Positions 1 to 56,669 of a stretch of DNA of 64,000 nt are shown here, one piece after another. Both the position numbers and the translations under genes were made by a program. Source of the DNA: Candidatus Micrarchaeota archaeon (GTDB taxonomy: Archaea; Micrarchaeota; Micrarchaeia; Anstonellales; Bilamarchaeaceae); NCBI GenBank assembly GCA_038046805.1, contig JBBSVO010000006.1, forward strand, positions 164,452 through 228,451, read 5' to 3'. How positions within the stretch are numbered: the first letter of the stretch is position 1; every line of letters starts with the position of its first letter. A model generated the notes under the pieces. That model was given only the letters and a program-made list of their open reading frames with translations. It was not told where the DNA came from and searched no databases.

Positions 1-127
1 TATAATTTGTTCAGCGTCTAATCTTTTATTATTCTTCGCAGGGATAGCAATCCGCTTGAACTGATGTTCAAATCTTGTCATCCCTGCTTTAGGTATTTAT
101 TCGTACCTATCCTAAATTCATACTACT

Positions 128-2746: not shown

Positions 2747-3955
2747 CTAGAAAAACGTTTTATCCAATCCTTTCTCAACTATTTTCTTGAGAAGCAAATT
2801 CTTGACTTCTTCGTCTTCAATAAGGATATTCATTAGTTCATTTGGTTTCTTGTTCGGATCAATTAACAATGTTTTTTCATCAAGAGGGTTTCCGCATTTA
2901 CCGCAGAATGATTGGACTGGCGAGTTTTTCTCTTTACAACGTAAGCAAGTTTTGATATTCAGTTTAACTTCTTTTTCTTCTGTTTTTTCTTTCAATGAAT
3001 AGACCTGCAATAACGCGTTATCAACATCCCGACCTGACAAATGAACATAGGTTGAAGCCATGTCTGAGCCTTGCGTCCAGCCAAAGTGTTCTTTCATCTG
3101 ACTTTCAGTAAGTTTGTTTGCCAACGCAGTGGCTCTTGAATGTCTAAACAAATGAGGATGAACTCTTTTCCGTATCCCTGCCTTTTCAGCAAGTGTTTTG
3201 ACAAGCACGTAGATCGAGGCATAGCGGAGATATCTATTTTTGTCCGAGTAATTAGTTGCAGACTGGGGCCATAAAGCAGCTTCTGGATCTTTTCTTGCAG
3301 GATGGATGTCAATCCAAGATGTCAGGATTGGAGCAGCCATTATTATGCGAACTCGTCTATCGCCTGTTTTGCCAGTTACTCTTAGCACAGCTCCGTATTG
3401 GTCAAAGCTGACATTTTTCATCCGCAAACTTAATATTTCGCCTATTCTGCAACCAGATTCGTATAAAACCGTGATAAATGCGCGATCTCTTTGCGTGGTT
3501 GCCATTTCAGCCATTTTCAAAACTTCGTCTTCAGTTAGCAAATGCTCGGGTAGTTTGTGATTTTCATTCTTTAGCTTTGGAGTAAGCCACCGTATCTCTG
3601 GAGGGAAAATCTCATCATTTCCTTTCAACCATTTATAGAACATTTTGAGAACGATTTTGAAGTCGTATTTGGTATGCTCTGCATAGTCCTTTGTTTCCAG
3701 GCTTCCGATCAAGTTTATGAGGTCGTCCTTTGTGGCTTCCTTAAATGGTTTCTGAAGCCATATCGCCAGGAACCTTAGGCAGTATATGACTTTTGCCACC
3801 CGGCCGTGTCCAGAGCCTTTTGCCAAGCGTATATTAGCAAATGCCTTGATCTCCTCGATGTTTTCTTTTCCAATGCCCTTTTGTTTACTTAACTGCTGCA
3901 GGCTTAATTCTAGCCTGCGCGGATAGTCATACAATTCCAACCTTCCGTTTTTCAT
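2747..3955 (-). CDS. Tyrosine recombinase/integrase with C-terminal zinc ribbon
   Basis: ESGCRIGE, GKTG, HLFRH, HFGW and TYVH catalytic motifs; CLRC..CGKC. Confidence 0.95.
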   Translation of the reverse strand: MKNGRLELYDYPRRLELSLQQLSKQKGIGKENIEEIKAFANIRLAKGSGHGRVAKVIYCLRFLAIWLQKPFKEATKDDLINLIGSLETKDYAEHTKYDFKIVLKMFYKWLKGNDEIFPPEIRWLTPKLKNENHKLPEHLLTEDEVLKMAEMATTQRDRAFITVLYESGCRIGEILSLRMKNVSFDQYGAVLRVTGKTGDRRVRIIMAAPILTSWIDIHPARKDPEAALWPQSATNYSDKNRYLRYASIYVLVKTLAEKAGIRKRVHPHLFRHSRATALANKLTESQMKEHFGWTQGSDMASTYVHLSGRDVDNALLQVYSLKEKTEEKEVKLNIKTCLRCKEKNSPVQSFCGKCGNPLDEKTLLIDPNKKPNELMNILIEDEEVKNLLLKKIVEKGLDKTFF

Positions 3956-53287: not shown

Positions 53288-53478
53288 TTTGTCACCTTTT
53301 ACATCTATTATAATTCGTTGCCTTTTCTGACGTATATGCAAATGGACAGAAACCTTTAAATATAGTTAGTAATAAAGGAAATTTGCTAATAAGAAAGACA
53401 TTCATTTCACGCTCTTTCTTTGTATGGGAGGATAACTGGTCGCCTTGCCAGCGCATAATTGCGCTGGCCTCTTTCTAT

Positions 53479-53735
53479 TTGAAGCTTTTTGGATAAGGAG
53501 TTATAAGGGCAAAAACCTTCAGGAAAAACCATGGAGGTTTACGGAATCCTCCCATGCAGGGATTTTAAAAAACAATTGAGCCTTTTTGGCTTAGGGGTTA
53601 TCAGGGCAAAAACACGTCCGGTTGAACGGCGATCCGTTCAATGGACCATTGAAACCACCTTGTTTCAATAGGTCGCGAAAAACCATGGAGAAGCCAATAG
53701 TTTCGGCGCAATACTCCCATGCAAAGGATGTTAAA
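53479..53735. repeat. Two tandem copies of a ~100-bp structured unit
   Basis: CTTTTTGG..AGG.GTTAT.AGGGCAAAAAC-[var]-GAAAAACCATGGAG-[var]-CTCCCATGCA..GGAT.TTAAA at 53479 and 53576. Confidence 0.8.
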
Positions 53736-56207: not shown

Positions 56208-56609
56208 TGCAGGGGACAGGATTTTCAATTACCACGGGAGTATCACGCCTACGTTTTTCTTTTGGCGTGTCAGGAACGACCGACAAAACGACGCTTCGTT
56301 TTGTGGTCCATAAAACGTTACGACGTTTTATCGGACGCATCGTTCCTGAGCATGTTCAAGAACGAAATGTCGTTCTTGACATGAAACCCTCAGACCTTTT
56401 CTTTTTTAAAAGAAAAGGGGTATGGGTTTGAACCTGTGAAGACGCTAGGTCATCAGATTTCCTATCCCGCATTCGGGAAAAGAACAAACGAGATCTTGAG
56501 TCTGACGCGTTTGACCGTTGCGAAACCAGTTTCCAGTTGCCTGTTTCCAGTTCCCAAAACGCGAAACTGAAAACCCTAGACAGAAAACTGACTTCTCCGC
56601 CACCCCTGC
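56208..56609 (-). tRNA. tRNA-Leu(CAA) with three introns (15/16 56518..56594; 37/38 56459..56494; 59/60 56222..56426)
   Basis: Joined exons give GCAGGGGTGGCGGAG-CGGTCAAACGCGTCAGACTCAAG-ATCTGATGACCTAGCGTCTTCACAGGTTCAAA-TCCTGTCCCCTGCA with fully paired acceptor, anticodon and T stems. Confidence 0.85.
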
Positions 56610-56669
56610 GCATTATATTTGCTTTTTGCCGCACCACATTTTAAAACCTTGTTAGTCTATCATCTACTC

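What the first reader, a model, noticed from the sequence alone, without database searches (positions are those of the whole stretch)
56208..56609. Hidden triple-intron tRNA-Leu(CAA) with a 205-nt T-loop intron packed with palindromes
Seen: four exons rebuild a well-paired tRNA. Introns lie at 15/16 (77 nt, clean BHB, heptamers), 37/38 (36 nt) and 59/60 (205 nt; TTCA/TGAA helix, relaxed motif). Intron 3 holds a multibranch set of long hairpins and begins with CCCATACCCCT, a degenerate mimic of the 3' exon, with a possible nested ACCC/GGGT BHB. Knowledge: three-intron tRNAs are rare, described mainly in Thermoproteales. Inference: the intron interrupts the 3' region that integrases target (the island core CCCTGCA is shared), so it may shield the gene or be a domesticated insertion; the excised RNA may be functional.
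Basis: partly seen in the sequence, partly recalled or inferred. Interest (0 to 1): 0.85.

Follow-up and report, generated by a model that had tools for sequence, protein, structure and literature searches.

The report
tRNA intron built from jumping hairpins
This leucine tRNA gene of a tiny groundwater archaeon really is split by three introns, and the longest is three small mobile DNA repeats nested inside one another, which offers a testable lead on where archaeal tRNA introns come from.

Summary
Four exons rebuild tRNA-Leu(CAA), with introns of 77, 36 and 205 nt at 15/16, 37/38 and 59/60. It is the only Leu(CAA) found, and its exons match the sister genome at 83 of 84 bases. The genome encodes an ARMAN-type epsilon2 endonuclease and RtcB.

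Three introns are not rare here: 40 of 41 located tRNA genes are interrupted, 6 of them three times.

The 205-nt intron is a nest of dispersed repeats: a 61-nt element A, split by a 58-nt module B1, split by a 55-nt module B2. A also starts the T-loop introns of Cys, Tyr and Asp. It also sits between genes inside 18-36-bp direct repeats, and two such sites are empty in the sister genome, whose Leu(CAA) lacks this intron. One metatranscriptome contig leaves the genome exactly at the predicted 3' splice site, a hint of excision.

The exon mimicry, nested BHB and integrase shield are not supported. The mobilising enzyme is unknown. Searches of the held library found no paper on this link, but this scan has noted similar elements on other DNA. 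Verdict: new variant of a known kind.

The parts
56595..56609 (-). Exon 1 (tRNA positions 1-15)
   Evidence: identical in G001
56518..56594 (-). Intron 1, 15/16, 77 nt, HBh' motif, long stem of genome-wide heptamer repeats
   Evidence: G001 has a 48-nt intron at the same site, 39 of 77 aligned columns identical
56495..56517 (-). Exon 2 (D-loop to position 37, anticodon CAA)
56459..56494 (-). Intron 2, canonical 37/38, 36 nt; old and apparently vertically inherited
   Evidence: an anticodon-arm intron in 40 of 40 Leu(CAA) orthologues (that sample was partly chosen by a pattern that needs it); 27 of 36 identical to G001
56427..56458 (-). Exon 3 (position 38 to 59, long variable arm)
56222..56426 (-). 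Intron 3, 59/60, 205 nt, hBH motif; longest of 73 introns located in the genome
   Evidence: absent in G001; RNA contig ends its match at 56222
56382..56426 (-). Element A, 5' part (pyrimidine/purine hairpin)
   Evidence: A core 0.98 identical to the uninterrupted copy in the tRNA-Cys intron
56335..56381 (-). Module B1, 5' part (58-nt double hairpin with TGTC..GACA ends, inserted without visible duplication)
56280..56334 (-). Module B2 (55-nt double hairpin, CC..GG ends, flanked by a 1-bp T duplication at 56335 and 56279), inserted in the tip of B1's second hairpin
56268..56278 (-). Module B1, 3' part
56252..56267 (-). Element A, 3' part (purine-rich end)
56222..56251 (-). Locus-specific 30-nt tail that supplies the TGAA half of the central helix and the 3' bulge
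56208..56221 (-). Exon 4 (position 60 to discriminator; CCA not encoded)
56639..56646 (-). TATA-like box about 30-37 nt upstream of the tRNA (read by eye; no tool tests archaeal promoters)
   Evidence: conserved in G001

Best explanation
A working tRNA-Leu(CAA) gene of a Micrarchaeota-type archaeon, whose three introns are cut out by the broad-specificity epsilon2 endonuclease and sealed by RtcB (enzymes shown present; splicing inferred). The T-loop intron is a safe harbour for selfish repeats. Step 1 (copying shown, direction inferred): element A, a gene-less 61-nt hairpin unit with a fixed 5' end and a variable 3' tail, came to sit at 59/60 as a near-copy of the unit in the tRNA-Cys T-loop intron. 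Gain after the split from G001 is about 60% likely, precise loss in G001 about 40%. Step 2 (shown by empty copies): B1 inserted into A, and B2 into the tip of a B1 hairpin. Because each insert folds on itself away from the splice helix, the intron grew from about 90 to 205 nt and stayed spliceable. Step 3 (inferred): A most likely spreads through an RNA copy, about 50%. In that route an excised intron is re-ligated to cut RNA ends or primed at a DNA nick and then reverse-transcribed. DNA template switching or gene conversion is about 35%, a transposase about 15%. B1 and B2 look like DNA-level small mobile repeats with an unknown mobiliser. The excised RNA is most likely a stable by-product.
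For: Function: no second Leu(CAA), best other alignment 0.36, at noise level; exons 83 of 84 identical to G001 against 51% and 75% for introns 1-2 and 84% and 68% for the flanks. EndA matches ARMAN-2 4FZ2 over its full length, E 1.2e-137, with Y160, K161, Y236, H251 and K282 kept. RtcB is present. The ARMAN-2 enzyme cuts a 59/60 hBH intron in vitro. RNA contig X15-1 matches 56417-56222 with 0 differences and then has 5 unaligned letters. Mobility of A: 10 clear copies in the genome: 4 at the start of T-loop introns, 2 directly 3' of tRNA-Val genes, and 4 intergenic at 3 sites inside exact direct repeats of 22, 36 and 18 bp. At 2 of the 3 sites G001 has no element and one copy of the repeat. 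The A model hits 29 of 61 genomes. By eye, 24 of 55 hits in fetched loci begin a tRNA intron, 16 in the T-loop and 8 in the anticodon loop. Leu(CAA) copies in G000, G024 and G003 are each closest to a copy in another tRNA of the same genome (0.98, 0.96, 0.92). B1 gave 18 hits and B2 26. B2 is flanked by the same base on both sides in 15 of 15 chosen full-length copies, two of which share flanks. 28 of 73 introns have a homologue in another tRNA (0 in 10 shuffles) and 14 of 73 have one outside tRNA genes.
Against: No spliced tRNA or exon junction was seen. The RNA hint is one contig of depth 3.1 whose 5 extra letters were not shown, and random-primed read ends can be clipped by chance. In the predicted fold the 5' bulge of intron 3 is paired with element A. 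TTG could also be read by tRNA-Leu(TAA) (recalled wobble rule), so the gene need not be essential. Polarity is unsettled: 15 of 40 orthologues have a T-loop intron, several A-based. Leu groups with the G000 Cys copy at two sites, but at one site both Cys copies share a C that Leu lacks. Long duplications are rare outside G000: apart from the tandem arrays of G025, only one of 55 hits had an exact repeat of 10 bp or more (14 bp, G044). None of the 6 tRNA-linked G000 copies has one. The third intergenic site could not be checked, because G001 matched one flank only. The genome's only RT is split over two frames, and G025, with 37 hits, showed no RT. A co-occurs with RT (14 of 17 against 15 of 44) but also with Y1 transposase (14 of 19 against 15 of 42); kin are not independent.
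Confidence: 0.78

Rival explanations
1. The A-bearing intron at 59/60 is old in this clade. G001 lost it precisely, and gene conversion between tRNA genes keeps the copies in one genome alike. Only B1 and B2 are new arrivals.
For: 15 of 40 orthologues have a T-loop intron, A-based in G003, G024 and G035 and A-like in G005. One site groups both Cys copies against Leu. The Cys copy predates the G000/G001 split.
Against: The other T-loop introns differ wholly in sequence and length (24-156 nt), and 25 of 40 orthologues have none. A inserted at two intergenic sites after the split, so it was mobile in this lineage.
Confidence: 0.35
2. The intron is kept because it blocks integrases that target the tRNA 3' half.
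For: It does interrupt the T-arm. Three tyrosine recombinases are present. The two tRNAs nearest to an integrase have no T-loop intron. The idea is in print for split tRNAs (PMC4033280, passages).
Against: The shared heptamer is trivial. An att-like copy exists for Leu(CAG), which has a T-loop intron. The same element also sits in anticodon loops and between genes. 55 of 73 introns are not in the T-loop. The numbers are too small for a test.
Confidence: 0.1
3. The excised 205-nt RNA has been domesticated as a functional RNA.
For: It folds very stably, an RNA contig covers it, and A's hairpin shows compensatory changes in 2 of 16 pairs.
Against: No Rfam family at cut-off and no C box. It is absent in the sister genome, and its inner modules are recent inserts also scattered between genes. 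Structure conservation is equally expected of a mobile hairpin.
Confidence: 0.08
4. An insertion-disrupted pseudogene that is not spliced at 59/60.
For: Relaxed motif with the 5' bulge paired in the predicted fold. No junction read. The genome is 86% complete, so a second copy could be missing.
Against: Exons and cloverleaf intact. The tail carries the exact complement needed for the central helix. 18 genes have T-loop introns. The RNA contig is clipped at the splice site.
Confidence: 0.05

Closest known systems
ARMAN-2 (Ca. Micrarchaeum acidiphilum) pre-tRNA-Cys(GCA) 59/60 hBH intron and epsilon2 EndA (PMC3239211, section 13 and passages; PMC12397907, abstract and passages)
   Same: Same position, same relaxed hBH motif, same enzyme type with all five key residues.
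   Different: Here the intron is 205 nt (a review says such introns are usually under 100 nt, PMC4033280 passage) and is built from nested dispersed repeats; 40 of 41 located genes are interrupted.
Intron transposition in Thermoproteales (Fujishima et al. 2010; not read, seen as summarised in PMC4090602, PMC4033280 and bioRxiv 10.64898/2026.10.13.758758)
   Same: Related intron sequences recur in different tRNA isotypes and positions within one genome.
   Different: The donor family also has free copies outside tRNA genes, with long flanking direct repeats and empty sites in a sister genome. The passages seen call the mechanism unknown and mention no such copies.
Heavily interrupted Asgard tRNA genes (PMC11291895, passages; bioRxiv 10.64898/2026.10.13.758758, abstract, sections 3 and 9)
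   Same: Nearly all tRNA genes interrupted (92-95% there, 40 of 41 here), with most introns invisible to standard tools.
   Different: That preprint found little copying between tRNAs (1.5%) and no general mobile-element route. Here 28 of 73 introns have cross-isotype homologues (a looser, local criterion, so not directly comparable).
Haloquadratum small mobile repeats SMR-A/B and PATEs (PMC3119063, passages)
   Same: B1 and B2 are short and gene-less, have terminal inverted repeats, show no or minimal target duplication, and insert into the palindromes of other elements and beside an IS200-type gene; the mobiliser is unknown.
   Different: Shorter (55-58 nt against 80-110), double-hairpin body, a 1-bp duplication for B2; sequence likeness was not tested. 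Element A has no inverted ends and has long, variable duplications.
tRNA-Thr disruption by a recombinase-coding element in Caldiarchaeum subterraneum (PMC3293823, abstract)
   Same: Mobile DNA linked to recent intron gain in a tRNA gene.
   Different: There a 1.8-kb coding element lies beside the gene; here the non-coding element is the intron body itself.

Membership tests
Archaeal BHB-spliced multi-intron tRNA | Exons rebuild a canonical cloverleaf | tested here: met
   ARAGORN on the spliced product
Archaeal BHB-spliced multi-intron tRNA | Strict or relaxed BHB at each junction | tested here: met
   HBh', hBHBh' with one mismatch, hBH
Archaeal BHB-spliced multi-intron tRNA | Broad-specificity EndA and a ligase in the genome | tested here: met
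   epsilon2-type EndA, RtcB
Archaeal BHB-spliced multi-intron tRNA | Splicing shown in RNA | tested here: inconclusive
   one RNA contig clipped at the 3' splice site of intron 3; no junction seen
Transposed tRNA-intron family (Thermoproteales type) | Closely related introns in different isotypes and positions of one genome | tested here: met
   A in Leu, Cys, Tyr and Asp; 28 of 73 introns, 0 in shuffles
MITE (element A) | Terminal inverted repeats | tested here: not met
   none in alignment A1
MITE (element A) | Fixed-length target duplication | tested here: not met
   18, 22 and 36 bp between genes, none in tRNA-linked copies
SINE-like retroelement (element A) | Variable-length target duplication with an empty orthologous site | tested here: met
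   2 of 3 sites checked in G001
SINE-like retroelement (element A) | Partner reverse transcriptase that copies it | tested here: inconclusive
   one split RT in the genome; co-occurrence no more telling than that of Y1 transposase
SINE-like retroelement (element A) | RNA intermediate shown | not testable with these tools
   needs a retrotransposition or cDNA assay
SMR-type small mobile repeat (B1, B2) | Short, gene-less, terminal inverted repeats, many copies | tested here: met
SMR-type small mobile repeat (B1, B2) | No target duplication | tested here: inconclusive
   B1 fits none; B2 shows 1 bp in 15 of 15 chosen copies
SMR-type small mobile repeat (B1, B2) | Sequence kinship with the Haloquadratum families | not tested
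   those sequences were not fetched
PATE / IS200-IS605 derivative | Ends shared with an IS200/IS605 element, no inverted ends | tested here: not met
   B1 and B2 have inverted ends. A B1 copy lies just upstream of the TnpA gene, but A was not found there
Intron-encoded C/D box guide RNA (tRNA-Trp type) | C and D boxes, Rfam match | tested here: not met
   no C box, no match at cut-off
Casposon or CRISPR-type insertion | Cas1-family integrase present | tested here: not met
   no PF01867 match in an 86%-complete genome

The most novel reading that the evidence does not exclude
Element A is a non-autonomous, retro-mobile BHB intron. It is released by EndA, re-joined to cut RNA ends or primed at DNA nicks, and written back by a resident reverse transcriptase. 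It would be an archaeal counterpart of introners or SINEs that seeds new tRNA introns, also lands at promoters and small-RNA genes, and then collects smaller hairpin parasites. That would supply the missing mechanism for bursts of archaeal tRNA intron gain.
Probability: 0.3. Interest if true: 0.88.

Novelty: new variant of a known kind. Interest (0 to 1): 0.66.

Why it matters
How DNA gets into a tRNA gene and becomes an intron is stated to be open in a 2014 review and a 2026 preprint. Here one small unit is seen both as the body of tRNA introns and as a free insertion with a duplicated target and an empty site in a sister genome. The growth of one intron can be read step by step from empty and filled copies. 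That names substrates (A, B1, B2), candidate enzymes (EndA, RtcB, a split RT, a Y1 transposase) and a pair of genomes for a direct test. In practice, standard tools find few tRNA genes in such genomes (Rfam 4 over cut-off, ARAGORN 14 calls, against 41 located), so their tRNA sets are under-annotated.

Tried and rejected
ARAGORN with relaxed settings gave 237 mostly spurious calls and was replaced by spliced alignment. The first two genome-wide passes jumped across segments, so only the local trace-back was counted. Of its 46 rows, 5 scoring 0.40-0.42 with 6-7 long 'introns' were dropped as noise, 8 genes were re-cut by hand, and the run timed out at candidates below 0.36. Asn(GTT), His(GTG), Glu(CTC), Arg(CCG) and Ser(GGA) were not found; the genome is 86% complete. 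In one search, 9 of 49 loci were not Leu(CAA) and were dropped. An island bounded by the two Leu genes: rejected. Nested BHB and exon mimicry: at chance level. Cas1: none. The sigma-70 and terminator scan found nothing and does not cover archaeal promoters. A duplication search around 55 hits in relatives was mostly at background; the mismatched-pair null reached 30 bp because G025 arrays share sequence. RT and Y1 co-occurrence does not pick a mobiliser. Run X17 and the parts of the stretch without RNA cover say nothing. A search of earlier findings by the intron's sequence returned nothing. No open frame over 56 codons lies on the sense strand of the intron read as a circle.

Full report
Observation. 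The gene lies on the minus strand at 56609-56208. Joining 56609-56595, 56517-56495, 56458-56427 and 56221-56208 gives an 84-nt tRNA that ARAGORN calls Leu(caa); the introns are 77, 36 and 205 nt. Neither ARAGORN nor Rfam finds the unspliced gene. The junctions form an HBh' motif at 15/16, an hBHBh' motif with one central mismatch at 37/38, and an hBH motif (TTCA/TGAA on the T-stem) at 59/60. Intron 3 with its T-stem folds at z = -8.9. DNA contigs of run X7, from another study, cover the whole gene without a difference; run X8 covers it apart from 56388-56464 among the pieces shown.

Host and machinery. The genome has 1.2 Mb and is 86% complete; matching runs that carry a label are from groundwater, aquifer or drinking water. 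Its EndA is a 393-aa protein that matches the ARMAN-2 epsilon2 enzyme 4FZ2 end to end (E 1.2e-137). It keeps the residues that PMC12397907 names as catalytic (Y236, H251, K282) and as the specificity loop (Y160, K161). RtcB is present. 'Micrarchaeota' is inferred from this enzyme and from earlier scan notes. PMC3239211 (section 13 and passages) describes a 59/60 hBH intron in ARMAN-2 tRNA-Cys that this enzyme cuts.

Is the gene alive? No second Leu(CAA) was found; the best other alignment scored 0.36. Against the sister genome G001 the exons differ at 1 of 84 bases. Intron 1 is 51% identical, intron 2 75%, and the flanks 84% and 68%. In the one RNA run, 1 of 3 contigs lies on the gene. It is 201 nt long and matches 56417 down to 56222 without a difference over its first 196 letters; its last 5 letters do not align (strand convention read from X7 records 5 and 12). 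56222 is the predicted last base of intron 3. DNA contigs of X7 and X8 run through that point. My rough chance estimate (6 contig ends, 6 splice sites, 2801 bases) is about 1%. It fits an excised, possibly circular intron that still holds the 'nested' segment. It remains one shallow contig whose extra letters were not shown, and no exon junction was seen.

Not a rarity here. Spliced alignment to the tRNAs of an intron-poor relative (G031) located 41 genes with 73 introns: 1 gene with none, 13 with one, 21 with two and 6 with three; median 53 nt, longest 205. Five rows were dropped as noise, eight genes were cut by hand, and five anticodons were not found. Multi-intron tRNAs are in print for ARMAN-1/2 (PMC4033280, passages) and Asgard archaea (PMC11291895, passages).

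What intron 3 is made of. It splits into element A (56426-56382 plus 56267-56252), module B1 (56381-56335 plus 56278-56268), module B2 (56334-56280) and a 30-nt tail. A has 10 clear copies in the genome and 2 weak ones. Four start the T-loop introns of Leu(CAA), Cys, Tyr and Asp, two follow tRNA-Val genes directly, and four lie between genes at three sites. Those four sit inside exact direct repeats of 22, 36 and 18 bp that contain TATA-like boxes (by eye). At two sites G001 has no element and one copy of the repeat; the third could not be checked. This is the signature of insertion with target duplication, after the two genomes split. B1 (18 hits) and B2 (26 hits) are double hairpins with short inverted ends. 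They occur between genes, inside each other, inside other tRNA introns and upstream of the only Y1 transposase gene. B2 is flanked by the same base on both sides in 15 of 15 full-length copies that I picked; B1 adds 58 nt with no clear duplication. The uninterrupted A in the Cys intron and uninterrupted B1 copies fix the order: A, then B1, then B2.

Relatives. G001's Leu(CAA) has introns 1 and 2 but no 59/60 intron. Of 40 orthologues in 49 loci examined, 15 have a T-loop intron of 24-205 nt and 25 have none (the sample leans towards likeness to this gene). A covariance model of A hits 29 of 61 genomes across the order. Among 55 hits in fetched loci I read by eye 16 at the start of T-loop introns, 8 at the start of anticodon-loop introns, 3 directly 3' of a tRNA, and 4 directly after a D-box-like word. 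Among 27 A cores, the Leu(CAA) copies of G000, G024 and G003 are each nearest to a copy in a different tRNA of the same genome. Exceptions exist: the G000 Tyr copy and one intergenic copy are nearest to other genomes. Copying between tRNA genes is therefore shown. Whether G000 gained the intron or G001 lost it is not settled, because the diagnostic sites conflict; I put gain at about 60%.

How it most likely works. EndA needs only the local helix and bulges, so anything that folds on itself between them is carried out with the intron. The intron is then a neutral landing site, and it grows by nesting. For A, the fixed 5' end at splice sites and RNA ends, the variable tail, the lack of inverted ends and the variable long duplications point to an RNA-templated route (about 50%). 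DNA template switching or conversion is next (35%), then a transposase (15%). Against the RNA route: long duplications are rare outside G000, the tRNA-linked copies have none, the only RT is split over two frames, and G025 has 37 hits and no RT match. A co-occurs with both RT and Y1 transposase, which singles out neither. No Cas1 was found.

The shared heptamer occurs 185 times and no repeat of the Leu(TAA) end lies in the window. T-loop introns are in 18 of 41 genes, and an att-like copy exists for one that has such an intron. The shield is thus unsupported, though not excluded. Mimicry and the nested BHB are at chance level. No known RNA family matches.

Against what is known. The gene belongs to the BHB multi-intron tRNAs, and the spread of A matches intron transposition in Thermoproteales, whose mechanism PMC4090602 (passages) calls unknown; the 2010 primary paper was not read. 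The Asgard preprint 10.64898/2026.10.13.758758 (abstract, sections 3 and 9) found no general route of arrival. B1 and B2 work like the Haloquadratum small mobile repeats (PMC3119063, passages); kinship was not tested. PMC3293823 (abstract) links a coding mobile element to intron gain. Seven searches of the held library showed no paper on gene-less mobile repeats forming archaeal tRNA introns; most subscription papers are not in that library. Earlier AI notes of this scan report similar modules in this genome and similar intron elements in other genomes. They are not independent support, and my reading was noted before I opened them.

Verdict. A real feature: a new variant of a known kind, interest 0.66. 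The three introns are ordinary for this lineage. The nested mobile make-up, the empty sites and the RNA hint are what make it useful.

Noticed in passing
G000:C4:76284-76030 (- strand): tRNA-Ala(GGC) appears permuted: the 3' piece (position 60 to the end) lies just upstream of the 5' part, with a TGCG/CGCA helix at 59/60, plus two ordinary introns (read by eye).
   Followed up: partly
L125:460-1718 (G000:C11, beside tRNA-Gly(CCC)): The only RT is split over two overlapping frames at a G-rich run and is preceded by an Asn-rich frame like a diversity-generating template (label recalled). Several relatives show the Pfam match starting at the same profile position in 220-247-aa frames, so the split may be conserved.
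   Followed up: partly
window 53470-53730: Two cassettes like the commonest tRNA-intron family of this genome, one holding a B2 module, lie outside any located tRNA, each followed by the same 10-nt word, just upstream of an RNA 3'-phosphate cyclase gene.
   Followed up: no
window 38-90 and 128-251: An internally deleted stub of tRNA-Leu(TAA) sits just upstream of the full gene. The full gene has a 38-nt anticodon intron, and ARAGORN miscalls it Ser.
   Followed up: no
window 2747-3955: Tyrosine recombinase 2.5 kb from tRNA-Leu(TAA); no repeat of the tRNA 3' end was found in the window.
   Followed up: partly
L165-L178 (G025): Tandem arrays of element A with another GC-rich hairpin unit make T-loop introns of several hundred nt; 37 model hits in this genome.
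   Followed up: partly
L146, L147, L151, L155, L157, L159: Element A lies directly after, or inside, C/D-box-like small RNA motifs in several genomes, in two cases with a short duplication (motifs read by eye).
   Followed up: no
genome-wide, e.g. window 56552-56529: A 7-nt periodic AAC repeat word forms long hairpins at 34 sites, 5 of them in tRNA introns.
   Followed up: partly
G000:C6:279126 (- strand): Exact 16-nt copy of the tRNA-Leu(CAG) 3' end near the contig end, att-like.
   Followed up: no
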